DNA of 64,000 bases, taken from IMG/VR virus record IMGVR_UViG_3300024264_000019, positions 1-64,000 of that record; one strand, given 5' to 3'. Under the pieces are notes generated by a model. The model was not told the DNA's origin. It did no database searches and saw only the letters and a program-made list of their open reading frames with translations. Numbering within the stretch: the first letter of the stretch is position 1; each line of letters opens with the position of its first letter. A program made the position numbers and the translations under genes. Source of the DNA: a virus. Below, in pieces: positions 6,086 through 63,613 of this stretch.

Positions 6086-8495
6086 TCTTCATAGCTTCTA
6101 TACTGCAAGATTTTGGTTCATTATCTTCTGATTTTTCAATTTTAGTAGCAGCTCTATTCCTTAAATAATAGGTTGTTTTTAAACCTTTCTCCCAGCAGGA
6201 CATATATAAATCATTGAGATATTTTAATGAAGTTCCACTATTATATAAGTTGAAACTTATGGATTGATCAATCCATTTTTGTCTAGCAGCGGTACAGTCA
6301 ATGAGTTTAAACATGTCTCTATCAAACGCAGTCTTATATTTCTCTTTTAAGTCTTCTGGGATATTAGTATTTGCTATTGATAAGTCACCATCAACCCCCT
6401 TGATGAAGTTAGAAATTTCAGGATTCCATAAGCCTCTATCCTTCATGTCTTGAACGAAATAAGGGTTAGTTATATAAAAATTACCACTCTTGTTTTCATA
6501 AACAAATAAAACAGAAAAATTTGGCTCAATACTTTGTTCAACACCATTAATATAACCAATGGTGGCTGTAGGCGCTATAGCCATAACGTTAGAGTTTCTC
6601 ATTCCATGATCACGAACGTGAGATCTAACTTCCGTCCAGTCATTGAGAGTTTGACCGTCACCAGTTAACGGTTTTTCTGTAGCTGATTTATTGGGGTTTT
6701 CCGAATTACTTTTATAAGCTATTAAATTATTGTAAGAATCGATAGGGAAAACGTCTTGTGACCAAAGCGAACCTTCGTAAGTTTCATAGGAACCTCTTTC
6801 TTGAGCGAGCATTGAACTCGCGTGAATAGCATTTAACGAATAAAACTCAAAAAGCTTGTCATTGAATGCTATAGATTCATTACTATCAATGTTTATATTC
6901 TTGATGTGAAGGATATCATGAATACCCATCATTCCTAAACCAATAGGTCTATTTTTAAGGTTGGAGTTACTAGCTTCTTTAGTTGGGTAAAAATTAATAT
7001 CAATAACGTTATCAAGCATTCTAATGGCTGTGTGAATGGTTGATTTGAGTAGTTCATAATTTAGGTCTCCATCAACCATGTGGTTAACTAGGTTGATAGA
7101 ACCAAGGTTACAAACAGCGGTTTCTCCGATTTTTACTTTTTCCCCGCTTTTATACTCGGACGCTTTAGTATGAAGAGTAATCTCTGTGCATAAATTTGAG
7201 CTGTGAACGACGCCTTCATGTTGGTTGGTATACCTAATGTTACAGGGATCTTTAAACGTGTTCCAGGGGTGAGACGTTTCAAAAAGAACTTTTAACATTT
7301 TTTTCCACAATTCTTTTGCGGTTGTGATGCGATAGTTTTTAATTAAACCTTCTTCTGCTTGATCACATAGTTTGTTATACTTTTTATCAAATTCCTCCCC
7401 AAAACAATCGTGAAGATCTGAATCTTTAGGGTCAAAAAAGTACCAAACATCTTCATTTTTAACTCTGCGCATGAATTCATCTGGTATCCAGGACGCTGTA
7501 TTCATATCGTGACATCTTAATCTATCATCCCCAGTGTTCCTTCTTAGGTTTAGGAATTCCTCAAAATCCAAATGCCAAGGCTCGAGATATGCGCACCCAG
7601 CGCCTGGGCGTTTACCGCCTTGGTTTACTGCAATCAAGAGGTCGTTATAAATTTTTAACCAAGGAATTAAGCCGCTAGAAATACCACTAGTTCCTAAAAT
7701 ATTCGAACCTGTTGATCTAAAAGGTGTAACATCTAGACCTAAACCTCCAGCAAATTTTGATTTCCTAGCTTCTTGCCAGGCTCCATCAAAGATACCATCT
7801 ATACTATCATCAAAAGTATTAAGGTAGCAAGAGCTTAATTGAGAGTGGGTCGTTCCACTATTGAATAACGTTGGGGTGGATGGAGTATAAAGCATACTAC
7901 TTATCAAATTATAAAATTCAATAGCCTTTTCGTTTTTATTTTTTTCATTGATAGCTAAACCCATAGCTACTCTCATCCAGAAAGATTGAGGAGCCTCTGA
8001 GCATTTACCATCAACCCTTAAGAAATATCTATCAGTTAATATTTGGATACCTAAGTATTTAAAATTTAAATCCCTTCGTATTTTTAGAGATTCAGATAAT
8101 TTAGGGAGATCAAAAGTTAGGAGTTCCTTATTTAGTCTTTTTTCTTTTACTAACTTTTTAATGTTTTGAATAAAACTCTTCCTGTATTGTAGTTTAAAAG
8201 CGTCTGAGTCAACACCTTCCTTAAACACCTCTTTGTATAAGTTGTTTAGCAATAACCTTGCCGCAGCAAGCGAGTAATTAGGCTCTTTTTCAATCTTCTC
8301 CCTTGCTGATAATATTAAAGCTTTATCAATATCTTTAGTCGGAATCTTATCAAAAAGTTGTAATTGAGCATCTAGTACTATTTCACTAGGAGACACATCT
8401 TCAATACCTTCACAAGCTCTTTGCGCGCTAGCATTTATCTTATCAACCTGGAAGTCTTCGAGTCTACCGTTTCTTTTTTTTATTTTAATTTGCAT
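6057..8495 (-). CDS. nrdA: Ribonucleoside-diphosphate reductase class Ia alpha subunit with N-terminal ATP cone
   Basis: IKKRNG ATP cone; TPTLFNSG, QLSSCYL, SNLCTEI, VCNLGSIN, AIAPTAT and TTYYLR motifs; C-terminal CESC. Confidence 0.95.
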   Translation of the reverse strand: MQIKIKKRNGRLEDFQVDKINASAQRACEGIEDVSPSEIVLDAQLQLFDKIPTKDIDKALILSAREKIEKEPNYSLAAARLLLNNLYKEVFKEGVDSDAFKLQYRKSFIQNIKKLVKEKRLNKELLTFDLPKLSESLKIRRDLNFKYLGIQILTDRYFLRVDGKCSEAPQSFWMRVAMGLAINEKNKNEKAIEFYNLISSMLYTPSTPTLFNSGTTHSQLSSCYLNTFDDSIDGIFDGAWQEARKSKFAGGLGLDVTPFRSTGSNILGTSGISSGLIPWLKIYNDLLIAVNQGGKRPGAGCAYLEPWHLDFEEFLNLRRNTGDDRLRCHDMNTASWIPDEFMRRVKNEDVWYFFDPKDSDLHDCFGEEFDKKYNKLCDQAEEGLIKNYRITTAKELWKKMLKVLFETSHPWNTFKDPCNIRYTNQHEGVVHSSNLCTEITLHTKASEYKSGEKVKIGETAVCNLGSINLVNHMVDGDLNYELLKSTIHTAIRMLDNVIDINFYPTKEASNSNLKNRPIGLGMMGIHDILHIKNINIDSNESIAFNDKLFEFYSLNAIHASSMLAQERGSYETYEGSLWSQDVFPIDSYNNLIAYKSNSENPNKSATEKPLTGDGQTLNDWTEVRSHVRDHGMRNSNVMAIAPTATIGYINGVEQSIEPNFSVLFVYENKSGNFYITNPYFVQDMKDRGLWNPEISNFIKGVDGDLSIANTNIPEDLKEKYKTAFDRDMFKLIDCTAARQKWIDQSISFNLYNSGTSLKYLNDLYMSCWEKGLKTTYYLRNRAATKIEKSEDNEPKSCSIEAMKNGESCESCQ

Positions 8496-12768: not shown

Positions 12769-13539
12769 ATGTCAAAAACAGAAACAATCGACAATTCATT
12801 CGGCCCTGATAATTTCAAAAGAGATGAGAATGGATTATTACAGAATGTTAAATACGTCTTCAATGAAGATGGTTCTATAAATTGGAGAGCTATGGTTAGG
12901 GAAGAGCATTTATTCCCAAATAAAGCTTGGTTTGAAAGGTTCAACAAGCCTTTGCCTAAAGTCATTAAAGGATTAAAAGATCACCAGCTACTCATAAAGC
13001 TTTCTGGAATTAAAGAGTTAGCTAGGTTAAGGGGGTTTAACTCTGTTTCTTATGAAACAGTAAAGTGCTCTTATGAACATGTAGCTGTAAAATGTAATAT
13101 TAATTTTATATCTAATTATGAAACTTTATCAGAAACCTCTTATGAAGACATGGCTAACGCAACAATTAATAATTGTAGCAGTTTTGCCGTTAAGTTTCTA
13201 GAAACAATAGCTTGCAACAGATCTTTTGTTAGAGCTGTCAGAAATTTCTTGAATATTCACATTGTAGGCTTAGACGAAATGGACACGTCTGACTCTAGTA
13301 AATCAAATGAAGCTACTGGAGCAAGCCTGTCTCCCTCCTTCTCTATAGATCAAACCTTAGAAAAATTCGCTAAAGATATTATTAACTGTCAAGATTTTGA
13401 ATGTTTTAAAGAGTACTTACTATCTCTTAAAGATACTAATGTTTATATTAATAGTGAAATACCTAACTGGGCTAGCTATAAAGATATACCAGCTAAGGAC
13501 TCTAGAATTTTATTAAAAATAATTAAAGAAAACTCTTAA
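12769..13539 (+). CDS. Putative ssDNA-annealing protein (Rad52/Sak-like)
   Basis: ETIACNRSFVRAVRNFLNI resembles the A..RA..RA.R helix of annealases; leaderless start after TTGACA-17-TAATAT. Confidence 0.45.
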   Translation: MSKTETIDNSFGPDNFKRDENGLLQNVKYVFNEDGSINWRAMVREEHLFPNKAWFERFNKPLPKVIKGLKDHQLLIKLSGIKELARLRGFNSVSYETVKCSYEHVAVKCNINFISNYETLSETSYEDMANATINNCSSFAVKFLETIACNRSFVRAVRNFLNIHIVGLDEMDTSDSSKSNEATGASLSPSFSIDQTLEKFAKDIINCQDFECFKEYLLSLKDTNVYINSEIPNWASYKDIPAKDSRILLKIIKENS

Positions 13540-24130: not shown

Positions 24131-27100
24131 TTATCTTAAAACTCCTTGAGGATCAATTTTAGGAGCTAATGCTGTTGCTAAATAATCAAGTATGACACCC
24201 TCTTGTAATATACTTCTTAATTGATCTCTCATCACTGGAGTTAATACGCCCTTAACCACTTCAGAATTAAAGTCGAAGGTTATTCCTCCTTTAACCTCAT
24301 GATTAATAACTAACCCACCTAACTGCTCAGATAACTGAGCGGGTAATTCTTGAATAACTTTTATCGCTGCAGAAAAATCTTGGCTACCCTCTGGCGGACT
24401 AGTTGTGGGCGGTTTTTCTCCATCTGAATTACCACCATTTGGAGGGGTTTCTACTGGAGGTTCACCCTCTTGACTTGTCAATCTATTAACAAGGTCTTGT
24501 AGTGGAGTTGTGATAGTGCTTAAATTAGTAACTGCTAATCCTTGTTTCCATAAATTACCAAGCTGCACTGTTAATCCCTTTATTGGATCTTTTACTAGAT
24601 TTGGGTCTAAACCTTCTTTTCCAGCCACTTTTTTAAGTTCTTCAGCGACTCTTTCGCTATTTTTTAAATCTGCTTCTAAATTTGCTTTTATTTTTTCAAA
24701 AACAGGTCTTAATTCTGCGGCTTTTTCTGGGTCCATGTTTTGTAACTGTTCCATTATATCATTCACATTAGCTAGAGCAACGATGTAATTTTCTGTATCT
24801 GAATTCAATCCAGTGAAAATCGTCGATGAAACCCCAAGTACATCAGCGAGTGTTCTAAACGCGTCTATACTATCAGCTACAGGTGCAGCTGAATCGTCAG
24901 TAGGTAGGCGACCAAGCGTCGGTATAATTGAGGAGTCAGAGTTTATAGCTGCGTCAACCCCCGTTTTAATATCACCATCATTCAACCTCCGACCTCCTTG
25001 GTTTTCTAGTCTTGAGGATGACGCATCACCTGATGCTATCAGTTGATTAATAGCCACTCTTTGTAGCTCCGCTATCATTTTTTGCGAGCTAGCAACTTCT
25101 AGATCTCTCGCATTCTGAGCTATTCTATTACCCTTTTGCCCCGTGCCCTTAATGGAGCCCAGAAAGCCCTTCATTTCCTTAAGTGTTACATTTCCATCCT
25201 TGTTGCCTGCAGCAAATTCTGCAAACTGCCTTGCTAGCATTTGATTTTGTTCGCTTTGTTGTCTCTGAACATCTTGTTCAAATTTACCTGTTCCACTAGT
25301 GGGTTTAGGTTCTTTTATATTCATCTCTCGTTTTTCAATTTCGCTGGGGTTAAACAAAGCAGACATATCAATATTGCTAGCTACTTCGTTCATTAATTCA
25401 GTAATTAATCCGCTTTCGTTCCTACGCTTAATGTCATCATTCTCAATAGAAGCTTGCCTTCCTTGGAATCCCCTTGGGTCAATATAATTTCTAGATGATA
25501 AATATTCATTAGCTGAAGATCTTGCCATCGTTTTTGTTTCACCTTGGTAATCTTTTAAACTTTGATTTGATTGAAACCTACTCATCATAGTATCAACGTT
25601 TTGTTGAGCTTGCAACATGTTCTGATACTCTGATAGTAGCTTCTCTTCAAGGTTAACTATTTTTGATTGAATTTCTACTGCTTTTTGGATTCCATCACCC
25701 ATACTCTCCAAAGCTTCCTTTCCGTCAAGCGCTGACTGAGCGAATTCTTTTAAAACCGCTCCCCCAAAAGTAAGCATTGTACCATCTTCAGAGGTAGCTA
25801 ATCTATCAAAATTCTCAAAGCTTTGCGCTCCGCCAGGCATTTCTTCTAATGATTTTCCCACTTTTGAAGTTGATAACTTTCCAGTTTTAGCGAAGTTGCT
25901 CATGGCTTCTTTAAATAAATCATTAAAAGCTCTAGCCTCTTCTTGTTGCATTCCCGCGTCTAACTTTAAATCTGTTTGTCTAGCTAAAGCAATTTCTTCC
26001 TGAGTTTTTCCTCGCAAGTCTTCACTACCACTAACAAAAGATGTTCCTTCGGATATTCTACTTGCTACCTGTTGCTGAGCTAGCATTCTCGCTTGAGTTT
26101 CGAAACTATCATTTAAGTTTCTAGCCATATCTGTAGCTTCCCCAAGCTTACCTTGCATAGGATCCCTTCCTGACAAAGTTTCCTTGTTGTAATCATATGT
26201 ATTACCTTCTCCAGTTAAAAAATCAAGACCTGTTTTCGCTCCTGCAACAGCTGTTTGCACTAAATCTCCAAACCAACTTTTTGCAACCGTTCCTGGCCCC
26301 ATCTTATCATCCTCATTAGCAGCTGTTCCAGCTTGAAGTAGTGCAGTTCTTGCTGCTGCTTGTGCCCCCATATTTTTAATAGCTTCTCCTAATAAAGCTA
26401 ATTTTTGGGACGCGCTCATACCTGAGTTAGCTAATTGATTCATTCTTGATTGGACCTCTGGGTCTGAAATTTTATTTATAGATTCTCTTATTTGAGTATT
26501 TGCAGCTATTATTCCCTTTGTATCTCCTGATTGAGAAGCTGCTTGTAGTTGCTGAACTCCCATAGCTAAATTCTGAATACTAGATGTATCCTTCATAACT
26601 TTATCCAAATCCTTCTTGGCTTTACTTAAGGCTTTAAACGTGTCAGCTTGAGAGTCTCTATTGCTCATTTGATTCAGCCCACTACTTACTCCTTGAAAAG
26701 CTCCTAATCCCATACCTATAGGCCCAAAAGCTGCACCCATAGCAGCAGAATTAAGTACATCCATACCTAATCTCCCGCTGCCGCCCACTGCTTCATCCTG
26801 TCTTCCATCCCTTATCATTTCTGCGGCCATTGGTCCCATAAACATCGCCCCCATTGATGCGCCCCCCGCCATTGCATTCGCGTTAGACATTCTCTGCCTA
26901 GCTACAGGAGACAATCCATGTTTTCTAATTTTATTAAAACCTCTACTTCCCTGACTTCTTTGATTGTGCCTGTCTTGTTGTTGTTTTAATTCAAAACCTT
27001 TATCTGAGTCCATTCCAGCGTATGGGTTTAGGATTTTATCTCTACCTAATAATTTACTTTGTTTTCTTTCTTGCTCAAGTTTGAACAGCTCTTTCTCTTT

Positions 27101-30100
27101 TATTAATTTTTTTTCTTCTGGCGATATCGCAAATGAAGGTATTCCGTGAGTTTTTGGATTTAACCCTGTTTTATTAGCTCTGTTAATTCCTTGTTGTATA
27201 CCCATTGGTTCATCAACCGTGTTTATCACAGCGAGTCCCTGTGGGTTCATAGGTCCCTTCAATAAAGAGCTTTTTTCAACTTTTATCTTGCTTGAAGATA
27301 TCCCTCTTTGTTTCAGAGCTTCTGATTCCCTTGCTATCGCTTGATCCAACGCGAAATTTGGCAAAAACCCGTTTCCATAATTTGATATTTTCCCTTTAAA
27401 ACTTGGGTTTGCTGAATGCCTTAGGTACTCAGGGTCCATATTTTTAAGAGATGATACGTTAGCTTTTTTATTATTATAAAAAAGGATTAATTTTTCTTGT
27501 AGCTCTTTTGGTAGATTTTTGAACTCGCTTGAATTTGTAAATCTTTTAATATTATCTAAATCTTGAATTCGATTTCGTTTGCTAATTTTAAATGGTTGTT
27601 TTCTATCTATCGAAGTGACAGGTCGAGTCTTTAATTCTCCTTGTTTTGAACCTTGAATTCTGCGATTAAAATCAGCTACTCTCCCACTAAGATTAGAGAA
27701 CTCTTGACCACCTAAAGGTTTAGATGCTTGAATTTTTTTATTATGAGCAAGTATTAAATTTGCAAGTTTACTAAAGTTTGGAATATGACCTTTAGAAAAT
27801 CCAAGAATTTGAAATACATCATCAATTTTGTCAAGTCCAAATTTTTCATGTATTCTTTGGAACTTTCGAGCTCCCCCTGCGGCTTTTACATACGCATCAA
27901 TTTTGTATTGTTCATTCTTATTTTTTCCAATTTTTAATTCCTTAAGGTATTTATTTTTATTAAACTGCTTAAACCTTCTCGCTGGCCTAGCAAAATTCGG
28001 TATTCTCCCCTCAGAGAATCTATTACTTCTCGATCCAAATCTATACTCTGGTAAACCATCCCCACCAAGCCTCCTCGTTAATGAAGTAGGTCTTTTTTTT
28101 CCTGGTTTACCTCTTTGTGTTTTCTTTGAGTATTTTTGGTAAAACTCATCAAGAGCTTCTTTTTGTATTTTAATTTTTTCTATCTGTTTTTCGATATTTC
28201 TTAACTCGTTAACATCTCCACCTGATCTTCCAGATAATAAATCCATTGCTTTTGATTGAGTTGATTTAAAATCATACTTTATATCTTCGTTTTTTCGTTT
28301 ATAGCTTTCTGCGTCTTTTCTTTTTAAATAAAAAGTGTCTGAACCCATTTTTATAGGAACTCCCGAAACCGACTCTCTTAGACTTTTGGTTAATTTATTA
28401 TTTTTTAATTTGTCTCTGTATTTATACATCGCATATCCCGCCAGCCCAATTCCAGTCCCTACTCCCCCAGTAGTTAATAAATCTCCAACTACCGATCCTC
28501 CTACCCCTGCTCCTCCTGCTCCTCCTACCCCCAAAGCCAACTTTCCTGCGGCTACTGCCTTCCCTCCCAATCCAACTGTCTGCCCGACTGATGATAGTCC
28601 AGATAAACCTTTAATTCCCAAACCTATCGCTCCAGCTCCAGCTCCTAAAGCGCCAGCAACCCCTAGGCGTTTTTTATTTTTATTAAGAAACTCTCTTGGT
28701 TTACTAAATTTCTCTTTTCCGAATTTTTGTAAACCTATTAATTTATTTTGAATATTTAAAAACTGTTTCTGTCCAAATTCTTTCGTTTTAGACGCTCCTG
28801 TTCTAGCGTAATATGTTAATGGTGATATTAATTTTTCACCAAGAAAAGCCTTTCCGTCTTTAATTCTTGAACCTAACTGTTTATAGTTTACATTTGTTAA
28901 TTGGTCAAAGCTTTTATTAAAAATACTAGGACCTTTGGCTTTCCCCGTTTTAGAAACTTCTTCATAATTCTCTAATACATACAATAGATCTCTAAAGGAA
29001 TTAACCCCCTTACCCCAAGCTGAAGAAATACCTTTAAATATTTTTGATCTTTCGGTTTTGTTTTGAATAGATTTAGTTTTTTCAATAATTGATTTTTTAG
29101 TTTTCTCTTCTTTGCTTGACCCTGAACTCCAAGATCCTACTTCAGGGTTAAAAGAGTTTTTTCCAAAACTGTTAAAAAAATCATTCATCCATTTTTTTGA
29201 ATCTTGATATTTGTCTCTTGTTTTTCTAATTTTCTTGTGGCCAAAAGCTAGAACGTTCCTACCCACACTTTTAGATCTTTCGTATTTTTCATTCAAACCT
29301 TCAATAAATCCAGACATGGGCAAACTCATTTTCTTATCTTTAAAATTTTTCAATCCATTTACGACGCTAGAACCAACCCTACTCCCACCTTTCCCCACTA
29401 AGGATAAAGTTTCTGAAATTCCCCTAGTGGCATCAATTTGCCTAAAGGGTCCCGTTGCGGATGCGATTGATCTTACAGCTCCACTAGCAATTGCTTTAGG
29501 TAAATTAATGGCAGTTGATTTCACGAAATTCCCAGCCTTATCCACAAAGTATGTTCCATATTGTTTAACATCCTGTTTCATTCCTTGGAGTTTTTCACGT
29601 CTAGCTGTTCTTTTTTCTATTTGAGCTTTAGCTTTGTTTTCGACCTCAAACAGTCTTTGCACTTTTTTTCCATTAGGGTCTTCGCTACCCTTAAAATCTA
29701 CATTTTTTCCAGTCGACTTGGAATAATATCTTGTCGTTTGAGTTTGGTCATTTGATCCAACAAATTTTAAATCATTATACTTTATTCCATCTGGACCTGT
29801 AGCCCTAAATGTAGCATTCCTAACTATATTTGATCTATTCTTTAAGCTATTTAATTTAGAACTCTCTAAAGCCTCTTTTGCTTCAACAGCTTTTTTAATA
29901 AATTTTTCTTTTTTCTCCAAAGCTTTCTTACTAGCTCTTTCCACAGGGCTCATTAAATTCATATTTCTTAAATCTATTATATTAGCAAGGTCCGAAGGTA
30001 TTGCTCCAACGGTATTCATGAATTTTCCTCCCATAGCTACAGCTTTATCTTTCACCGCAAGTCCTAATTGTTGAGCTTTTTCACTTACATATCCTGGGCT

Positions 30101-33100
30101 TAACATTGACGTGTTTATTCCCCGACCCTTCTTCTTTTTATTTTTTTCTTGGAGTTGTCTTCGTTTTTCGGTTGAGGCTTGCGAGTGAATTACCGTTTGA
30201 TTCAGGAAGTTATCGAGATCCAAACTTCTTCCTCCATTTTTTTGAATTAATGAACTTATACCTTCTCCACTCATTCCCCAATACCCCTTATCTTTAAAGA
30301 AATGTCTCTTGTCAATATCAACTGCAGATCTCATATCTTTTTGTCTTTTCTCTAAGGGTGTCGCTCCTGATCCAAGGAAAAAATTTAAATGTTCTGCTAG
30401 CCCTGATTTTTGTTGAAACTTCACAAGTCTACTGTTCACCTCTCCTTGAATCAGTTTTTTATTCTTAGGGTCTAGTATTATTCTTCTTAAATCTTTTGGC
30501 GATATTTCTTTACCATCAATTTTAATCTCTTGATTTTTCCTGTCTATTACTAAACTTCTGTTTCCAGCAACTTCTTTAGCTTCCTTTGTGAAATTCTTAT
30601 CTCCACTTAACATCGACTCTTTAACTATAGACTCAATAAATCCAACGCTACCAGTATTCGGATCTAATTTTCTAATACTTTTATCTCTATCCCTTAATGC
30701 AAAATTAGGTATGTATCCGCTTGATAAATTCTGAACTCCAATTTGTTTTTCTATATTACCAACTCTTGAAACTAAACCTTGAACCGTATTCTGAATTTGA
30801 GAAACTGCATTCATTGAAACCGCAGCTCCAACAGCACTAGTTTTGGCAATTCTTGAGCTCCTCTTGGTTTGCGAGCCAATACTAGCTTCCTGGTTACCAG
30901 GGAAAGCTCCATAGCCTTTTTGCTTCCCTAAGTATCTCACTCCTGTCATTTTACCGTACTCAACATCAAAACTTTTTTGCCTCAACCATTCTTTTTTTGA
31001 TAGTTTTTTATCGATTAAATAATGGTGATCCATGTGATTATATTTCTTCGAAGCTTCTTTATGGTTTTTAGCGAAACCTGCTGTGACTAAATCTTGCTTT
31101 TGGTTTTTCCTTAGACCTGCAAAATTTGGTATATATCCAGTAGCAGCTTTAGTGAGGGGCCCATAGGACTTTCTGCTCGTCCTCGAAACTTCCATCTGTT
31201 TTTCTTTTTGCGCTTTAGATAGCTTCACTGTGTTTTGCGGTATCTTTAATACCTTTGAGCTAAAATCCCTCTTCGTATCCGCGTTAAGAGCTATTTTTGC
31301 ATCAGCGAATGGAGTGTAATATCCAAATAGCTTTTGAAGTTTTTCGTCAGGAGTACCATTGATATCAAAACTCGCATTGTTTTTTGTAAAAAGCCTGTTT
31401 TTTCCTACAGCCTGCAAAGCTGTTTCAAAAATCGAGCCAGAAGCTGAGCCCACGCTTCCTGCGTTAGCCATTCTACTAATTCCAGGAATATTCATTCCGA
31501 AATTTCCAGCGCCAGCCATTTCTCTAGCTAATCTAGATGACTCCCCAAGCATTAAATCTTCTATTCTGCTTCTTATATTACCTTCTGTATTTTTTAAAGA
31601 CTTTGGTTTTATTCCCTCAACTCTATATTTCATCCTCACATTACCCTTTTCCGTCTTGTAGGAAGTATCAACTCTTCTTCTTATATTGTTTGTAGCTACA
31701 AGCATTGTTGCTTGAGTAGAAGCGTCAATCGTTGGCATTTTATTTTTAATATCTCTAGAAGCTTGCTTTTTTGCCACTATATTTTCTTTAGAGTTTTGAG
31801 CTTTAAAACCTTTTATTTTTTTCTGATCCTCAACGGAAAACATATTTAAATAAACCTTTTCACCCTGCGGGTCTTTAGAGAAATCTCCATCTTTCAACCT
31901 GTTAATTTTTTGAGTAGTAAAGAAACCTTTTTTAGTTTGAACTCCAGCTGCAAAATTTGGAGTCTTAGCTCTAGCTGATCCATATGTCCTGGGATCAACC
32001 CCTTCAGCTTTAGCTCTTTTTATTCCTTGAGAAATTCCCATTGGTTCGTCACGGGTATTGGTGACAGCTAAACCTATTGGGTTTTCTTTTGTAATTAAAT
32101 CTGGACTTCTTTCAATTCTTATTTTTGATCTTGGTACTCCAGCTTCAGTTTCTCTCTGAAGTGCTTCTGATAAAGCGTTTCTCGCAAAATTAGGGATTAA
32201 ATTTGAATTTACTTCAGATGAGTTTGCGTAGTTTGGGATAAAACCTTTCCCCATAGTTTTTATATCAATTTTGCCACCTTTTTTGAAGTGTTTCCTTAGG
32301 GATAATAATTTATCTGGATTATATCCCATCTTCATTAACATCTGAAAATCACCCTCTAAACCTTTTTTGAAATAAGATTCTAGCCAGAGTTTTTGAAACT
32401 CCCCACCCATCCCCTTTTTCACGGTGCTCACGCTCTCTCTTTTGAATAGAGAAGATTTAAATTTTATATTTTTATTAGCTGGATCCTTTAATGTGTCTTG
32501 TATTTTTTGATATCTATTTCTTTTATCAATAAAATTTGGTATAAACCCACTTGAAGCTGACCTAACTCCTCCACTGGGAATTCTATGATTTGGATCTAAA
32601 AACAAACTTTGACTTTGGGAGGAATCTTTTCTTTTAATAAAATCTTCAATTGATTTTGGAATTGTTGCGTTTTTGTTTAAATTATTAGTTACGTATTTTT
32701 TGTAAAATTCTAATTCTTTCTGATTATCAATAGACTTGATTCTTGTTGAGAAAATTTTCGATAATTTATCTTGGCTCGAGTATTTGTATATTGCTTGTTT
32801 ATTTTTAAAATCAGGGTCGATCATGCTCCTTAAAACCCTGAAAGAATCTGTTTGTTTGAAACTTTCTTTATTTGCAGATATTACAGATTGGCTTAATTTA
32901 GTATCTGAGGGAGTTATCATGTTGATTCCTCCACCAAATAAAGCGTTACCAGAGGTTAAATTAATATTTTCTCTTTTATTATTTTTGTGCCCTATTGGTT
33001 TTTCACCCAGCCCTTTTTGTTTCGCAGCTACCATATTTAAATATTGGTCCGCAGCTTTCTTTAAAGCTACAACAACATTTTGCTTTTTAGTGGCTTTTGT

Positions 33101-58445: not shown

Positions 58446-58661
58446 ATGAACATTACTAAAGGATTAAAAGTCGGAAGCCTATATCATTCACGGGCAAATA
58501 ATAAAGTCGTGCGTCTCGTTTCACTTGATCGCATTAAAGGTGGCTTGCAAGTTGCAACAATCAAGCATCACAAACAAGATCATTTGTTTGAATCGGAGGT
58601 TTACATCTCTGACTTAATCAAGGCAACTACTGAACAAGTCAAGGCTTACTTTAAAAGGTAA
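58446..58661 (+). CDS. Early hypothetical protein (leaderless)
   Basis: TTGCAA-17-TAGTTT-6-ATG. Confidence 0.7.
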   Translation: MNITKGLKVGSLYHSRANNKVVRLVSLDRIKGGLQVATIKHHKQDHLFESEVYISDLIKATTEQVKAYFKR

Positions 58662-58698
58662 GTCTTGACACGACAAACAATAAAAGCCATAATTAGGA

Positions 58699-58872
58699 AT
58701 GATTAAAATAATAAGAAACCCAAACTTTGCCGAATGGCTCGACATTAAAGTATTCGACAAACTAATCGACAACGCCAAGACACAGGCGAAAGCTATGAAA
58801 ATAGCCGAGCAAGTCAAAAGCAAAAACCCACATTTTCAAATTGTAACAATAGAGGAAAAGACAAATGCGTAA
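58699..58872 (+). CDS. Early hypothetical protein, 57 aa (not in track)
   Basis: MIKIIRNPNFAEWLDIKVFDK...; preceded by TTGACA-17-CATAAT-5-ATG. Confidence 0.7.
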   Translation: MIKIIRNPNFAEWLDIKVFDKLIDNAKTQAKAMKIAEQVKSKNPHFQIVTIEEKTNA

Positions 58873-59170
58873 AGTAACAGAGCAAATAAAGCAAGCCTTC
58901 AATCAAGGCTTATCTAAAAAAGTCGGCAACACAAGAACAGACGGCAATAGCGTTTTCTTGCATGGTAACGAGATAATAAAGCGTGATGCAAGCGGGCTTG
59001 TAATGGCTACCCTTGCAGGGTGGAATACTCCCACAACAAGAGAAAGGATCAATGGCATAACAGGATTAGGCATTTATCAAAAGAACTTCGTTCCTATGTT
59101 AAACGGGCAAGAAGTTGATTCATACGATTGGCTAGTTCATACGACCAATACAGAGGAGGGTACAATATGA
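58865..59170 (+). CDS. Early phage protein of unknown function
   Basis: LHGNEI...GWNTPTTRERIN motif of a kind seen in phage early proteins. Confidence 0.7.
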   Translation: MRKVTEQIKQAFNQGLSKKVGNTRTDGNSVFLHGNEIIKRDASGLVMATLAGWNTPTTRERINGITGLGIYQKNFVPMLNGQEVDSYDWLVHTTNTEEGTI

Positions 59171-59217
59171 CTTGCATAATCCTCTTATCAGTTGCACTAT
59201 ACCTCTATTCACTTTAA
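59167..59217 (+). CDS. 16-aa hydrophobic peptide
   Basis: MTCIILLSVALYLYSL with an upstream GAGGAGG SD and an ATGA overlap. Confidence 0.5.
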   Translation: MTCIILLSVALYLYSL

Positions 59218-59231
59218 TTAAAACGCTCTCC

Positions 59232-59302
59232 TAAGTCGCTGATAGTCAGGCACTTAGGCGGGCGGCTGCCGCCCTCGTAAGTGATTGGTAAACAACGACT
59301 TG
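59232..59302 (+). repeat. Bipartite palindromic element, copy 1
   Basis: TAAGT-N15-ACTTA, 21-nt GC core containing GGCTGCCGC, TAAGT-N15-ACTTG. Confidence 0.9.
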
Positions 59303-59418
59303 CGAAAGCCTTGTTCATAAACCATGCCAATTCACGCAGTATAATAATGCAATAAAATAACTGCAATATAATTGCGAATAAATTTGACTTTAGTTAAAAA
59401 AAGCCTTAGTTTATATAT

Positions 59419-59769
59419 ATGAAATCATTATACAACACAGACACAGAAGAATTCACTTTTAGCTTTATCATGTGCATTGAGGGTAAATCCTACCGAGTCG
59501 AGGCAGTAGCTTGTCAAGACGACATCCTGTTGAGCGATCAATATCGCCCCGAATACATTGACGCATACATGGCTAAATTGACAAACGAAAAAACAAACGA
59601 ATTGACAGAGTCAAATGTCTACAAAAATACAGATCTTTTAAAGGTTGTAAGCGACAAACTTACAGAAAGGCTAATTACGAACGCGAGCAAAACTTGGTTT
59701 GTTACTGATGCCCCAAGGCTTTTCCTTGAGCAATTCGATACTCGCCTAGAAATAATGTTTAATAAATAA
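59419..59769 (+). CDS. Early hypothetical protein (leaderless)
   Basis: TTGACT-17-TAGTTT-6-ATG. Confidence 0.7.
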   Translation: MKSLYNTDTEEFTFSFIMCIEGKSYRVEAVACQDDILLSDQYRPEYIDAYMAKLTNEKTNELTESNVYKNTDLLKVVSDKLTERLITNASKTWFVTDAPRLFLEQFDTRLEIMFNK

Positions 59770-59816
59770 CCACAAATAAATTTGACTTTAGTTAAAAAAT
59801 AAACGATAGTATAAGT

Positions 59817-60032
59817 ATGACAGAAAGAGAAATAAAATCAAAAATTAGAGACTTAAAGAATCGATTAGATGCCGACCATTATGAAAGAGGCGTCGGGTTT
59901 GTACCTGCTAAGGGTTCAACTCGCGAATGGATCTTATCTAGCTTAGAAACCTTCGAGAAGATGTTGCCAAGAGCAAAGCATGACGACCAAGTAGCTCTTT
60001 ATGGTTGGAGATCAGTCGAAAGAAACGCTTAA
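59817..60032 (+). CDS. Early hypothetical protein
   Basis: 71-aa ORF after a TTGACT promoter-like element. Confidence 0.65.
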   Translation: MTEREIKSKIRDLKNRLDADHYERGVGFVPAKGSTREWILSSLETFEKMLPRAKHDDQVALYGWRSVERNA

Positions 60033-60051
60033 ACCACTTAAACCAAAAATC

Positions 60052-60252
60052 ATGACAGACACACTAAAGCAAGAAAAAAGAAGGCTTCAAGCCATCATTG
60101 ACAACAATAACAACGAAGCAGAAAATGGATCTGCTTCGGCTCAAATGCAAGTAATATCTGCACAGGCGGATCTTGACAGAATCGCACAGAGTGAGCTTGC
60201 TCAGTATATAGCAAGCACGCCTTTACCTAAACCTTTAATCTTAGTAGACTAA
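60052..60252 (+). CDS. Early hypothetical protein
   Basis: Start ATG 60052 (MTDTLKQ...) avoids overlap with the upstream gene. Confidence 0.55.
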   Translation: MTDTLKQEKRRLQAIIDNNNNEAENGSASAQMQVISAQADLDRIAQSELAQYIASTPLPKPLILVD

Positions 60253-60255
60253 GCC

Positions 60256-60429
60256 ATGCAGTACATAAAAGAAACAATCAACAAACTAAATCAACAAATT
60301 AAAGCTTTAAATCACGAAAGGGTTAAAGCTGTAAGATTGGGCAATAATAAGAAGGCTTCGGACATTGAAATCATACAAATAGAATTAGACAATAAAATAA
60401 CACAATTAGAGGGTTTAGCACATCGATAA
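60256..60429 (+). CDS. Early coiled-coil protein, 57 aa (not in track)
   Basis: MQYIKETINKLNQQIKALNHERVK... Confidence 0.6.
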   Translation: MQYIKETINKLNQQIKALNHERVKAVRLGNNKKASDIEIIQIELDNKITQLEGLAHR

Positions 60430-60439
60430 AGCCCTTCCC

Positions 60440-60510
60440 TAAGTTACTGATAATCAGGCACTTACGGGATCGGCTGCCGCCCTCGTAAGTGCTTGGTAAA
60501 CAACGACTTA
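60440..60510 (+). repeat. Bipartite palindromic element, copy 2
   Basis: 25 + 21 + 25 nt geometry with the same core. Confidence 0.9.
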
Positions 60511-60651
60511 CGAAACACCTGTTCACATACCATGCCAATTACCACACCTAAAAAGATGACCTATCCTACTAGCAGAATAGGGCAAAAACATAGTTGAAAG
60601 GTAATTCGCTATTGATTTGACTTCAATAGGCTTAGCCTTTACATTGTATTT

Positions 60652-60807
60652 ATGGAAATTAAAATTAAATCTCTCTCTACTTGGGCTAATGTCGTTTTTG
60701 AATTATATATCGGAAACAATTATTCAGGATCATTTGATTCTTTCAAGGAAGCCCAAAGCTACGGGCTTAAACTGACAAACTCTTTTCTTTTACTAGAAAA
60801 TAAGTAA
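60652..60807 (+). CDS. Early hypothetical protein, 51 aa (not in track)
   Basis: TTGACT-17-TACATT-6-ATG; MEIKIKSLSTWANVVFELYIG... Confidence 0.65.
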   Translation: MEIKIKSLSTWANVVFELYIGNNYSGSFDSFKEAQSYGLKLTNSFLLLENK

Positions 60808-60850
60808 AAAATAATTCGCAATTAATTAAAACATAGTTTACTTTATATAT

Positions 60851-61108
60851 ATGGAAGATAATAATCAAGATCGGATATCAATTGGTGATGTCATAGACAA
60901 TAACGCATATAAGAATGAAAAAGCTTATAATTTGACAAGGGCTCTTCTAGATATTGCTATTCTTGCAAGAGCTGTAAAGCATACAGCAAGCGAAGATATT
61001 AGAGGGAATGGAATGGTGGCAATTGACAATGTCAATGATTGGATGACCGAAATCAATAACATTGCAAATAAAGCCGTTAAAAAAGAAATGTTAACAGAAA
61101 AACTATAA
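60851..61108 (+). CDS. Early hypothetical protein (leaderless)
   Basis: TCGCAA-17-TACTTT-6-ATG. Confidence 0.65.
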   Translation: MEDNNQDRISIGDVIDNNAYKNEKAYNLTRALLDIAILARAVKHTASEDIRGNGMVAIDNVNDWMTEINNIANKAVKKEMLTEKL

Positions 61109-61120
61109 GGAAATATAATT

Positions 61121-61462
61121 ATGGAAAATTTAGATGCAGCTTTTGAACTTTACGAAATTGACGAAGAAACTTTGACTTGTTCTTACTCGGATGATGACGG
61201 ATCTTATATCGAGTTGACTTGCTCCTTATGGACTGATGAAATTGACAACCTTTGGGGTGATCAAGTTTCATCTGTTTCCTTAATTGGTTACTTTGACAAA
61301 GTTGAACAAGTTGAATCCTTTGATGTAAATGGTAAAAAAGTTGACTTTGTTAAGCTTGACGAAGTTGAAAGAGTCAAAAAAATACTCGAAAATGAAGAAT
61401 TTGAACTTGAAGAAACCTCTTGCAAAGTTGACTATTCCCCTCGCTACTATGATCTAGTATAA
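61121..61462 (+). CDS. Acidic early protein
   Basis: 113 aa, strongly Asp/Glu-rich; AAGGA SD. Confidence 0.7.
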   Translation: MENLDAAFELYEIDEETLTCSYSDDDGSYIELTCSLWTDEIDNLWGDQVSSVSLIGYFDKVEQVESFDVNGKKVDFVKLDEVERVKKILENEEFELEETSCKVDYSPRYYDLV

Positions 61463-61483
61463 TAGTAGAATAAGTCACCTTCC

Positions 61484-61554
61484 TAAGTTACTGATAGTCA
61501 GGCACTTAGCGAGGCGGCTGCCGCTTCTGTAAGTGCCTAACAGCCAACGACTTA
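61484..61554 (+). repeat. Bipartite palindromic element, copy 3
   Basis: 25 + 21 + 25 nt geometry with the same core. Confidence 0.9.
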
Positions 61555-61726
61555 CAGATCGATGGAATAAGTTAGGAAAAAAGTGTTATAATACGCGAAG
61601 CAAAAATCGTATTTTTATACTTTTTTATATGTATTTGTCTATTTACTATTTATACTATTTACTATTAAGTGAAAAAGTTTTTCAATTCTATTTGACTTCT
61701 ATTAATATATGTATTAGTTTTATAAT

Positions 61727-61873
61727 ATGATAAATAAGAAAATTGAAAAATTCATTCAAGACAATGATCTTGTTCGTGTTCTAGCTAGTCCAATGTCCGA
61801 GACCTTTGATCTCTGGGAATGCCCAGGCGGTCATGTTTGGACTTTTGAGATGATCGAGCAAGCAATAAAATAA
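61727..61873 (+). CDS. Early hypothetical protein, 48 aa (not in track)
   Basis: TTGACT-17-TAGTTT-6-ATG; MINKKIEKFIQDNDLVRV... Confidence 0.65.
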   Translation: MINKKIEKFIQDNDLVRVLASPMSETFDLWECPGGHVWTFEMIEQAIK

Positions 61874-61921
61874 TTGCGAATAAATTTGACGCAACTTAAA
61901 AAATAGATTACCTTTATATAT

Positions 61922-62137
61922 ATGACAGAAAAAAATGATTCACTTACTCGCCTTGCTCACGCCACTGGAATGACCGACATAGAATTTGAGGAACGCTCTC
62001 GAATTCAATCTGAACTTGCCCATCAACAAGTTGTCCGCCAGTGGGAGGAGGATCAGGAGGCTGACCGCCAAGCTCTAAAGGGGTTTTCGGAGAATGAGGA
62101 TGTTGATTGGGGTTATCATGACCAACTAGAGTTTTAA
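61922..62137 (+). CDS. Acidic early protein (leaderless)
   Basis: TTGACG-17-TACCTT-7-ATG. Confidence 0.7.
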   Translation: MTEKNDSLTRLAHATGMTDIEFEERSRIQSELAHQQVVRQWEEDQEADRQALKGFSENEDVDWGYHDQLEF

Positions 62138-62139
62138 TG

Positions 62140-62211
62140 TAAACTCTTTATAATCAGCCACTTAGGTGGTTGGCTGCCGCCCGCCCTAAGTGCTTGATAC
62201 TCAAAGACTTA
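62140..62211 (+). repeat. Bipartite palindromic element, copy 4 (at the convergence of + and - genes)
   Basis: 25 + 22 + 25 nt geometry with GGCTGCCGC core. Confidence 0.85.
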
Positions 62212-62235
62212 AAGCGGGGGTTTTACCAATAACAA

Positions 62236-62286
62236 CTACTTCACATAAAGATATAATAAAAAAGCCAAAAAGATTATTTCAATCAT
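62236..62286 (-). CDS. 16-aa hydrophobic peptide
   Basis: MIEIIFLAFLLYLYVK; ATGA overlap with the preceding 25-aa ORF. Confidence 0.4.
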   Translation of the reverse strand: MIEIIFLAFLLYLYVK

Positions 62287-62360
62287 TCTTCTTTCAAATC
62301 CTCCCACATTAAGTAAAAAACAAAAAGCCAAGGTGAAAACAATACTAATTCAAGAATCAT
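62283..62360 (-). CDS. 25-aa hydrophobic peptide
   Basis: MILELVLFSPWLFVFYLMWEDLKEE, overlapping the end of 62350-62613. Confidence 0.4.
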   Translation of the reverse strand: MILELVLFSPWLFVFYLMWEDLKEE

Positions 62361-62613
62361 TATAAATGCCTTTCATTTGGTCAGAGATGCCCATGTCTTC
62401 ATCTTCTTCGTCAATATCTTCTGCTGAATCAGTAAAGAGAAACTGAGATTCGTCAGCAAGATCTTCTTTTTGAGCATCTAGCAAACCATGCTCGGTTACT
62501 ACTTGCTCTGTTTTAATCTCTGCAATAAATTCCTCTATGGGCTGAGATGGCGTTATGGATTTTGAGTTTTCGACTGCTTTAGCGATAACTGCGATTCTTT
62601 GTTCTTCTGTCAT
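62350..62613 (-). CDS. Acidic early protein (leaderless)
   Basis: TTGACT-17-TATATT-6-ATG; DIDEEDED tract. Confidence 0.7.
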   Translation of the reverse strand: MTEEQRIAVIAKAVENSKSITPSQPIEEFIAEIKTEQVVTEHGLLDAQKEDLADESQFLFTDSAEDIDEEDEDMGISDQMKGIYNDS

Positions 62614-62637
62614 AATAGTAATATAGTTTAGTTGTGA

Positions 62638-63000
62638 TTAGTAGTCAAGTCCTAATTCTTTGTTGTGATCCGCTTGAGTCTTTCTTAATAAATCAACCCA
62701 TGTAAATCCATTAAGTTGGGCATCTCTCATGTGTTTGCTAATTTGAACAGGAGATTGCCAACCAAGAACATCGCCACATACTGCAAGAGGAATATCCACA
62801 TCTTTGAAAGTCATTAAAACTTCAAACTCCTTATCGTCAACATGACCATAAAGACCATGACCATCTCCTGAATTAGCGATCACAGAAATCATAAAGTCGC
62901 CAAACTTTAATTGAGCGATGACTTTCTCTGTGCCTGTTCCTTCGTACATTGTAATAAAAGCAAGGTTATCGAAGTCGAGTAATTGTTGTTTTGTTGTCAT
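62638..63000 (-). CDS. Early hypothetical protein (leaderless)
   Basis: TTGACA-17-TACATT-6-ATG. Confidence 0.7.
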   Translation of the reverse strand: MTTKQQLLDFDNLAFITMYEGTGTEKVIAQLKFGDFMISVIANSGDGHGLYGHVDDKEFEVLMTFKDVDIPLAVCGDVLGWQSPVQISKHMRDAQLNGFTWVDLLRKTQADHNKELGLDY

Positions 63001-63055
63001 AAGTATAATGTAATCTAGTTTAATTGTCTTGTCAAATAAAAAGAATAAATTTTCA

Positions 63056-63262
63056 CTAGAATTTTAATGCTTGTAATCGAGTGTTTTTCTTTAACCATCT
63101 GCGCAACGGATGAAATGCTCTAGCACTAAGGTGGGCTAAATACTGCTGTCCATTCTTGGCAAGAATCATATGACCGCTTGCTGTCTCACGAACCTCTTGG
63201 ATATCAGGACATTTCCGTAATTGTTTTAACACTTTGCGAGTTCCACTTTCTGAATGTTTCAT
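63056..63262 (-). CDS. Small basic early protein, possibly HicA-like fold
   Basis: Helix, then RETASGHMIL, then LAH, then helix; TTGACA-18-TATATT-6-ATG. Confidence 0.45.
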   Translation of the reverse strand: MKHSESGTRKVLKQLRKCPDIQEVRETASGHMILAKNGQQYLAHLSARAFHPLRRWLKKNTRLQALKF

Positions 63263-63337
63263 AATACTAATATAATCTTGTTAGGTGGTGCTTGTCAAAT
63301 AAAAAGAATAAAAAAAGAAAGAATTAAAACGCTTACG

Positions 63338-63409
63338 CAAGTACGTGAATAACAACCACTTACATCGGCGGCAGCGGCGGCACCTAAGTGCCTGACAATC
63401 AAAGACTTA
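63338..63409 (-). repeat. Bipartite palindromic element, copy 5 (inverted)
   Basis: 25 + 22 + 25 nt; core reads GCTGCCGCC on the minus strand; overlaps the stop of 63407-63613. Confidence 0.85.
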
Positions 63410-63613
63410 GTAGCCTAACCATTCAAGAACTTTTTGGGCTGAGTATCCGTCTTGATCGCCCATGTCCTCAAAAAATTTGCAAATTTCTTCGTTTGATGTG
63501 ACCCCGTGTTGCTCTAACTCTTTCAATGCCCTATCTTGCGAAATATCAACGGCATAAGCTGAGTCAAAATAATCGTTTCCAATTTCTGTTCTAATTTCAA
63601 TTTTTTCACTCAT
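63407..63613 (-). CDS. Early hypothetical protein
   Basis: 68-aa ORF; ATGA overlap with the upstream gene. Confidence 0.7.
   Translation of the reverse strand: MSEKIEIRTEIGNDYFDSAYAVDISQDRALKELEQHGVTSNEEICKFFEDMGDQDGYSAQKVLEWLGY

What the first reader, a model, noticed from the sequence alone, without database searches (positions are those of the whole stretch)
59232..63409. Five 71-72 bp bipartite palindromic elements delimiting cassettes of small early genes
Copies lie at 59232-59302, 60440-60510, 61484-61554, 62140-62211 and (inverted) 63338-63409. Each has two 25-bp imperfect palindromes (TAAGT-nnn-TGA-nnn-TCA-nnn-ACTTA consensus) separated by a 21-22 bp GC-rich core containing GCTGCCGC. 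Geometry is fixed while the sequence drifts. Each copy sits within ~25 nt of the last stop codon of a 1-4 gene unit, its core orientation follows gene orientation, and the next unit starts with its own promoter. Copies 1 and 2 share a further ~30-nt tail (tgttca...ccatgccaatt). Inference: these are protein-bound recombination or shuffling sites for an integron-like accessory cassette array (conceptually like the PeSL cassettes of T4-type phages), or structured terminator/RNA-processing elements, or binding sites acting during DNA entry. No recombinase is visible in this window.
Basis: partly seen in the sequence, partly recalled or inferred. Interest (0 to 1): 0.8.

Follow-up and report, generated by a model that had tools for sequence, protein, structure and literature searches.

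The report
Palindromic boundary elements between phage gene cassettes
A large uncultured marine-type phage separates its small early genes with ten copies of a 72-bp double-palindrome joined to a promoter, and related phages have reshuffled the gene blocks at these elements, much as T4-like phages do with their promoter/stem-loop cassettes.

Summary
The five copies are real. The 78-kb record holds ten, all between 59.2 and 69.7 kb, and seven related viral or MAG contigs hold 7-12 each (70 distinct copies aligned).

Each element is one 25-bp palindrome (TAAGTGCTTGAT-n-ATCAAGCACTTA) used twice around a GC-rich dyad core (GGCWGCC in this clade). That gives four half-sites. Their invariant bases, CA(R)...TTR, are those of the IHF consensus WATCARNNNNTTR.

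No RNA structure is supported. Pairing equals the shuffle expectation, RNAalifold predicts no pairs, G.U shows no excess over A.C, Rfam has no match, and there is no U-tract.

Many copies sit 26-31 nt upstream of the -35 of a sigma-70-like promoter that starts a leaderless gene. In 20 of 77 copies the element supplies the upstream gene's TAA stop.

Among relatives the gene units are permuted. Adjacencies spanning an element are broken 51/77 times, against 37/191 elsewhere. Crossovers map inside the element or at its edge, not at one fixed point. A 206-kb relative rated complete has no tyrosine or serine recombinase and no Y1 transposase.

Best reading: PeSL-like boundary modules whose palindromes are protein-bound DNA sites, shuffled by homologous recombination. 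The integron-like mechanism is not supported.

The parts
59232..59302 (+). Element e1: P1 59232-59256, GC core 59257-59277, P2 59278-59302. It follows the unit 58446-59170 (plus a 16-codon ORF ending at 59217).
   Evidence: 75.8 bits, E 1.6e-22
59303..59332 (+). Tail shared by the short-arm copies e1 and e2 (tgttca..ccatgccaatt). It is also present after the homologous elements of relatives. Function unknown.
   Evidence: (family D2)
59384..59421 (+). Promoter-like site TTGACT-17-TAGTTT, then 6 nt, then the ATG of the next unit (59419). This geometry implies a leaderless mRNA.
   Evidence: families D3-D5; geometry read from the sequence
60440..60510 (+). Element e2. It begins 10 nt after the stop of the 57-aa gene 60256-60429.
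   Evidence: (76 bits)
61484..61554 (+). Element e3. It lies 21 nt after the stop of gene 61121-61462 and is followed by an extended -10-like TGTTATAAT.
62140..62211 (+). Element e4, 2 nt after the stop of gene 61922-62137, at the point where the plus-strand and minus-strand units converge (gap 62212-62349).
63338..63409 (-). Element e5 (minus strand). Its outer TAA (63407-63409) is the stop codon of gene 63407-63613(-).
63262..63298 (-). Promoter-like TTGACA-18-TATATT, then 6 nt, then the ATG (63262) of the next minus-strand unit downstream of e5.
   Evidence: sequence
58446..63613 (.). Small early-type gene units delimited by the elements: 58446-59170(+), 59419-60429(+), 60652-61462(+), 61727-62137(+), 62350-63262(-), 63407 onward(-). 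Most products have no known function.

Best explanation
The elements are the upstream half of a composite boundary module between early transcription units of a large siphovirus-type phage. The module runs: stop codon of the upstream gene (often the element's own TAA), the 72-bp element, a 26-31-nt A/T-rich spacer, a sigma-70-like -35/-10, 6 nt, then ATG (a leaderless start).

The element acts as double-stranded DNA. It carries four copies of a 12-bp half-site, arranged as two 25-bp palindromes centred near -75 and -121, around a GC-rich dyad. This is most likely an array for a DNA-bending or architectural protein. Host IHF is the leading candidate, because the invariant bases equal WATCARNNNNTTR. 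Such a protein would set up or insulate each early promoter.

Because the same 70-150 bp recurs at every unit boundary, general homologous recombination between copies permutes, deletes and inserts whole promoter-bearing units. PeSLs do the same in T4-like phages.

Shown here: the anatomy, the confinement to one region, conservation of sequence rather than pairing, the coupling to promoters, and the concentration of breakpoints. Inferred: protein binding, the identity of the binder, the effect on transcription, and the recombination pathway.
For: Ten copies lie in 10.4 kb and none elsewhere in the 78-kb record. Nine copies lie in 9 kb of a 206-kb relative rated complete.

Seventy distinct copies from eight contigs keep the four half-sites. 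A of CA is present in 69-70/70 copies and TT in 70/70 at every half-site. WATCARNNNNTTR occurs 41 times in the record, and 15 of those fall in the 716 bp of elements.

Pairing is not selected. The cloverleaf model gives 72.5% paired against 73.4% in shuffles; the long hairpin gives 76.0% against 75.4%; covariation is not above shuffles. RNAalifold predicts 0 pairs. G.U counts roughly equal A.C counts. Rfam has no match.

Thirty-five of 77 copies have a T-run plus TTG -35 at 26-31 nt, 18 of them at exactly 27 nt. Copies e7 and e10 sit just downstream of canonical hairpin+T terminators, yet e10 is well conserved.

Unit order differs among relatives. Adjacencies across an element are broken 51/77 times against 37/191 without one. 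Three-way alignments place crossovers in the core or at the P2/spacer edge. P1 follows the upstream gene; the spacer and promoter follow the downstream gene. The PeSL definition matches.
Against: No binding protein is identified. The phage encodes no HU/IHF-family protein, and the host is unknown, so IHF availability is an assumption. The half-site also conserves 'AC' within IHF's N4 stretch, which fits another protein equally well.

Several copies fold into very stable hairpins (-31 to -37 kcal/mol, z -4 to -5.6), and the consensus is itself palindromic, so an RNA or cruciform role cannot be excluded by covariation alone. Short-arm copies (e1-e3) are not at the fixed distance from a promoter.

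Breakpoint counts are not independent events. The spacing between the two palindromes differs between clades (46-47 against 41-42 bp), so there is no conserved helical phasing.
Confidence: 0.5

Rival explanations
1. RNA-level element. The transcribed palindrome folds into a long hairpin that terminates or attenuates read-through between units, stabilises the upstream mRNA 3' end, or is cut by an RNase III-type enzyme. It would act in both directions at the convergence point.
For: It lies directly after stop codons. Copies e1-e4 and e9 fold strongly (z -3 to -5.6). e4 sits where the two arms converge. A U-rich spacer follows 7-8 nt after the hairpin in long-arm copies. PeSL stem-loops are experimentally effective terminators.
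Against: Pairing is no better than column shuffles, compensatory changes show no excess, and RNAalifold finds no consensus structure. G.U shows no excess over A.C on the sense strand. e5 and e8 fold no better than shuffled sequence. No U-tract abuts the stem, and the elements are not called by the terminator scan, which does find two canonical terminators immediately upstream of e7 and e10. A plain hairpin has no need for each arm to be palindromic on its own.
Confidence: 0.2
2. Dedicated site-specific recombination site (integron- or invertase-like). A recombinase binds the four half-sites and exchanges strands in the GGCWGCC core, moving promoter-bearing cassettes.
For: The architecture (inverted binding sites around a conserved core) resembles recombinase sites. 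Two resolvable junctions fall inside the conserved core. The element travels with the upstream gene, as attC does. A single-gene unit (family F36) is flanked by elements on both sides in one relative, absent in two others, and located elsewhere in this phage.
Against: PF00589, PF00239 and PF01797 are absent from this record and from a 206-kb relative rated complete. Other junctions lie at the P2/spacer edge or in the spacer, and P2 does not follow the downstream gene. The core sequence is not conserved in more distant relatives. A 21-bp spacer is far longer than known tyrosine-recombinase overlap regions (my knowledge).
Confidence: 0.1
3. Selfish REP/BIME- or MITE-like mobile repeat that has colonised intergenic DNA of the early region and has no function for the phage.
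For: It is extragenic, palindromic, carries an IHF-like motif, and lies after stop codons, as BIME/RIP elements do (my knowledge).
Against: There is no Y1 (RAYT) transposase. No bacterial genome among one per 185,579 species holds multiple copies; there were only two single, probably chance, hits. The copies are confined to one 10-kb region at unit boundaries and are phased to promoters. The family has been conserved across diverged phages.
Confidence: 0.05

Closest known systems
PeSLs (promoter-early stem-loops) of T4-type phages (Arbiol et al. 2010, PMC2839356; Comeau et al. 2014, PMC4122927)
   Same: Both are composite intergenic cassettes: upstream stop codon, A/T-rich stretch, sigma-70-like early promoter and a GC-containing palindrome. 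Both are repeated between small ORFan genes in a plastic region, and both mark the boundaries of indels, replacements and shuffled modules.
   Different: Here the palindromic part is a fixed 66-72-bp double palindrome with four conserved 12-bp half-sites and a GC dyad. It always lies upstream of the promoter (26-31 nt from -35), with no T-run. The genes start leaderless instead of using a Shine-Dalgarno site. The phage is a long-tailed siphovirus type, not a T4-like myovirus. Terminator and promoter activity are untested.
BIME / RIP (REP plus IHF-site) elements of enterobacterial chromosomes
   Same: Both are extragenic mosaics of palindromes placed after stop codons, combining GC-rich palindromes with IHF consensus sites.
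   Different: The arrangement is inverse: the IHF-like motifs are in the arms and the GC dyad is in the centre. There are ten copies in a phage rather than hundreds in a chromosome. There is no RAYT and no copies in bacterial genomes.
Integron attC sites
   Same: Both are imperfect palindromes at the 3' end of a gene unit that travel mostly with the upstream gene, and the units are reordered between genomes.
   Different: attC is conserved in folded structure, not sequence; it needs IntI; and its cassettes lack promoters. Here sequence rather than pairing is conserved, there is no integrase, each unit has a promoter, and crossover points vary.
Stoperators of cluster A mycobacteriophages
   Same: Both are many copies of a protein-binding DNA site in short intergenic spaces, with orientation tied to the direction of transcription.
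   Different: Stoperators are 13-bp asymmetric sites bound by the phage repressor of a temperate phage. Here the elements are 72-bp symmetric arrays, and no repressor or integrase is found.
RNase III processing sites between T7 early genes
   Same: Both are repeated hairpin-capable sequences of roughly 60-70 nt between early genes.
   Different: Here there is no support for selected base pairing, and several copies would form poor duplexes.

Membership tests
PeSL-type regulatory cassette | Sigma-70-like early promoter with an A/T-rich upstream region inside the repeat | tested here: met
   -35 (TTGACT / CTTGCK), 17-18 nt, -10 (TAnnnT), preceded by a T/A-rich 27-nt spacer. Activity was not assayed.
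PeSL-type regulatory cassette | Stem-loop-capable GC-containing sequence in the cassette | tested here: met
   A GC dyad core and hairpin-capable arms, although pairing itself is not under detectable selection.
PeSL-type regulatory cassette | Concentrated in a plastic region next to ORFan genes and at the boundaries of gene exchanges | tested here: met
   (51/77 against 37/191 broken adjacencies).
PeSL-type regulatory cassette | Stem-loop acts as a transcription terminator or attenuator | not testable with these tools
   No transcript data are available. The sequence lacks a U-tract.
PeSL-type regulatory cassette | Host phage is a T4-like myovirus | tested here: not met
   A 3827-aa tape measure protein (PF10145 and TMP PHROGs) indicates a long non-contractile-tail type. 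There are no close cultured relatives.
Integron attC | IntI-type tyrosine recombinase in the same replicon | tested here: not met
   PF00589 is absent from the record and from a 206-kb relative rated complete.
Integron attC | Conserved folded structure with variable sequence (covarying R''/R', L''/L') | tested here: not met
   Pairing equals the shuffle expectation and RNAalifold gives 0 pairs. No RYYYAAC/GTTRRRY ends appear in the sequence.
Integron attC | Promoterless cassettes expressed from a common Pc | tested here: not met
   Each unit has its own promoter-like site.
Intrinsic (Rho-independent) terminator | GC-rich hairpin immediately followed by a U-tract | tested here: not met
   The terminator scan does not pick up the elements as units (its only hit inside one, in e5, is a marginal 5-pair stem), but it does find two canonical terminators next to e7 and e10.
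REP/BIME (REPIN) | Associated RAYT (Y1 transposase) and many chromosomal copies | tested here: not met
   PF01797 is absent. No multi-copy bacterial genome was found.
IHF binding site | Match to WATCARNNNNTTR | tested here: met
   The full motif is present in 12-32 of 70 copies per half-site, and the CA..TTR core in 51-61 of 70. Fifteen of the record's 41 matches lie in 716 bp.
IHF binding site | Bound and bent by IHF of the host | not testable with these tools
   The host is unknown. There is no phage HU/IHF gene.
Any Rfam RNA family | Covariance-model match | tested here: not met
   No hit at the elements.

The most novel reading that the evidence does not exclude
The four half-sites and the GGCWGCC core form the target of an as-yet-unrecognised recombinase, encoded among the unannotated early proteins. 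On this reading, these roughly 206-kb marine siphoviruses run an integron-like exchange system for promoter-bearing early-gene cassettes.
Probability: 0.1. Interest if true: 0.85.

Novelty: new variant of a known kind. Interest (0 to 1): 0.6.

Why it matters
This extends the idea of regulatory cassettes that double as recombination joints from T4-like myoviruses to an unrelated, uncultured lineage of very large siphovirus-type phages. The element here is much more elaborate and appears to be protein-addressed.

It gives a concrete, testable model for how accessory early genes, the usual home of anti-defence and host-takeover functions, are permuted and exchanged as ready-to-express units.

The clean four-half-site architecture, the match to the IHF consensus and the fixed phasing to leaderless promoters make binding and reporter experiments straightforward. 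The family also provides a sequence tag for finding early regions in metagenomic phage contigs.

Tried and rejected
- N4-like or crAss-like virion RNA polymerase hairpin promoters. I considered these because of the 3827-aa ORF and rejected them because it is a tape measure protein. The crAss phi14:2 paper reports no early-promoter motif.
- Megablast and tblastn against cultured phages found no close relative.
- A first pattern with 14 specified bases gave only chance single hits. A 19-base pattern found the true relatives.
- A host-chromosome REP origin is unlikely: only two single hits in one genome per 185,579 species.
- Recombinase, transposase and HU/IHF searches were all negative.
- Host inference from RNR relatives failed. 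The hits are phage-like contigs binned into MAGs of five different phyla.
- An automated change-point scan for crossovers was noisy, so I replaced it with segment-identity statistics and three-way alignments.
- 'Core flipping' in some copies turned out to be a single central T/A change in the palindrome GGCWGCC.
- I looked for a DNA-binding early protein with Pfam, PHROGs and PDB sequence searches and found nothing.
- I compared the half-site from memory with DnaA, Fur, LexA, TyrR and ParB/KorB boxes. None fits as well as IHF.
Full report
**What is there**

The window is bases 1-64000 of a 78,208-bp IMG/VR virus record with 33.8% G+C. The five reported copies are at the stated coordinates and align over 71-72 nt. 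A sequence-only covariance model built from eight copies finds exactly ten sites in the record. Four are on the plus strand (59230, 60438, 61482, 62139). Six lie in the minus-strand arm (63336, 64411, 65221, 66681, 68142, 69576). E-values reach 1e-22, and there is nothing elsewhere.

Plus-strand units (58.4 to 62.2 kb) and minus-strand units (about 70 down to 62.35 kb) converge at 62212-62349.

**What phage it is**

The 3827-aa ORF is a tape measure protein. PhoH, class I RNR, a T4-type terminase N-domain and a manA RNA (RF01745, 83.8 bits, at record 70223-70432) are present. There are no close cultured relatives. It is therefore not an N4- or crAss-like phage with hairpin promoters.

A 19-base pattern taken from the element found seven related IMG/VR contigs with 1-4 exact matches each. 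The model then found 7-10 copies in each of five of them. One relative of 205,857 bp, rated 100% complete by CheckV, has nine copies, all between 25.1 and 34.4 kb.

RNR-based retrieval found two more distant relatives, which were binned into unrelated MAGs. They hold 12 and 11 copies.

**Anatomy**

Seventy distinct copies were aligned. Both arms are the same 25-bp palindrome, TAAGTGCTTGAT-n-ATCAAGCACTTA, so the element has four 12-bp half-sites. The inner two are the best conserved.

In every half-site the A of CA is present in 69-70 of 70 copies and TT in 70 of 70, followed by A or G. These are the specified positions of the IHF consensus WATCARNNNNTTR (consensus from my knowledge; counts). 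Of 41 matches to that motif in the record, 15 lie in the 716 bp of elements. 'AC' just before TT is also fairly conserved, so a different protein is possible.

The core is a GC-rich dyad whose sequence is lineage-specific:
- GGCWGCC in this clade
- CGCCGC-CCAGA-GCGGCG in one distant relative
- GCC-CYG-CC types in the other

In one relative, arrays of three palindromes with two cores occur.

**DNA site or RNA structure**

Single copies fold inconsistently. Some form three hairpins and others one long hairpin, and e5 and e8 fold no better than shuffled sequence.

On the 70-copy alignment:
- The three-hairpin model pairs 72.5% of cells, against 73.4% in column shuffles.
- The long-hairpin model pairs 76.0%, against 75.4%.
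- Neither covariation score exceeds the shuffles.
- RNAalifold predicts no pair at all.
- On the sense strand, G.U counts roughly equal A.C counts, with no G.U excess (36/41, 34/33, 35/27 and 38/56).
- Rfam has no match.

The terminator scan does not call the elements as terminators. It does find two canonical hairpin+T terminators 25-45 nt upstream of e7 and e10. e10 remains one of the best-conserved copies. What is conserved is therefore the sequence of four half-sites, not base pairing. This is what one expects of a protein-bound DNA array.

**Coupling to genes**

In 20 of 77 copies the element's outer TAA is the stop codon of an ORF of at least 40 codons. In 35 of 77 copies a T-run followed by a TTG -35 lies 26-31 nt after the element (exactly 27 nt in 18 copies). 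Then come 17 nt, a TAnnnT -10, 6 nt and ATG. This implies leaderless first genes, whereas internal genes have AGGA/GGAG-type ribosome sites (read).

The palindromes are thus centred near -75 and -121. Short-arm copies (e1-e3) instead carry a shared tail and lie 115-171 nt from the next gene.

**Shuffling**

Protein families were clustered across six genomes. Writing the long arm as units A-E:
- G002 reads A-B-C-D-E.
- G003 reads C-B-A-D-E.
- G005 reads A-C-D-B-E.
- This phage reads B-A-C and then differently composed units.

A single-gene unit (family F36) is flanked by elements on both sides in G002, absent in G003 and G005, and sits on the other arm in this phage.

Gene adjacencies that span an element are broken in 51 of 77 pairwise comparisons, against 37 of 191 without an element (odds ratio 8.2). 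The counts are not independent events.

Segment identities show which parts travel with which gene:
- P1 follows the upstream gene (0.82 against a background of 0.73).
- The spacer follows the downstream gene (0.81 against 0.47).
- The promoter follows the downstream gene (0.57 against 0.34).
- P2 follows neither clearly.

Three-way alignments place individual crossovers right after GGCTGCCGC (G005 8098), within the core (G003 8160), and at the P2/spacer edge (G003 5239). There is therefore no single crossover point.

PF00589, PF00239 and PF01797 are absent from this record and from the complete relative. This fits recombination driven by homology between repeated boundary modules. It does not fit an integron-like site-specific system.

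**Comparison with known systems**

PeSLs of T4-type phages are defined as a stop codon, an A/T-rich stretch, a sigma-70-like early promoter and a stem-loop, repeated in hyperplastic regions and mediating modular shuffling. The present modules meet these features, apart from the untested terminator activity and the phage lineage.

They differ in the elaborate, sequence-conserved double palindrome, its fixed upstream position, and the leaderless starts. BIME/RIP elements, attC sites, stoperators and T7 RNase III sites each share some traits but fail defining tests (see the membership table).

**Verdict**

This is a real, non-random and well-delimited repeat family. It is best read as a new variant of promoter-plus-palindrome boundary cassettes. 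The palindromes probably act as protein-bound DNA (IHF-like), and the cassettes serve as recombination joints.

The binder, the effect on transcription and the recombination pathway are inferences. An unknown dedicated recombinase remains possible at about 10%.

Earlier notes of this scan on the same stretch reached the same description (ten copies, IHF-like dyads, stop codon supplied by the element). These notes are not independent evidence, and I checked each point here.

Noticed in passing
record 70223-70432 (-), outside the window (L006:8223-8432): A manA RNA (RF01745, 83.8 bits, E 1.9e-20) lies at the head of the long early arm. It is preceded by TTGACA-17-TATTAT (L006 8604-8576) and followed by a terminator-like hairpin. 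An earlier scan note described this stretch as an unnamed structured RNA.
   Followed up: partly
window 59384-59421, 63262-63298; L006 minus-strand promoters: The first gene of every unit starts 6 nt after a -10-like hexamer with no ribosome-binding site, which implies leaderless mRNAs. Internal genes have AGGA/GGAG sites.
   Followed up: partly
window 24131-35614 (-): A 3827-aa tape measure protein (PF10145 at residues 112-314). Related contigs of 205.9 and 210.8 kb suggest a genome of roughly 206-211 kb, so CheckV's 67% completeness for this 78-kb record looks too high.
   Followed up: partly
window 59303-59332 and 60511-60540; relatives L166 and L169: A conserved tail motif, TGTTCA-N7-(C/G)(A/T)TGCCAA(C/T)T, follows short-arm elements only. 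It does not fit sigma-54 or sigma-70 spacing, and its function is unknown.
   Followed up: no
L179:12233-12342 and 13241-13348: In a distant relative the module is extended to three palindromes separated by two GC cores (P-core-P-core-P).
   Followed up: no
L006:3317-3338 (-) and 7692-7718 (-): Canonical GC hairpin + T-run terminators end the units that precede e7 and e10. The phage therefore uses ordinary intrinsic terminators alongside the elements.
   Followed up: yes
window 63028-63049 and 63291-63312: An exact 22-nt direct repeat (CTTGTCAAATAAAAAGAATAAA) carries the TTGACA -35 of two successive minus-strand promoters. The close relative G001 has an extra 95-aa gene in this interval.
   Followed up: no
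L006:7113-7514 (-), L006:1610-2365 (-), window 58865-59170 (+): Early proteins match families named after mycobacteriophage L5 gp82 (PF25735), GP88 (PF17338) and cyanomyovirus Gp96 (PF23790). All have unknown function.
   Followed up: no
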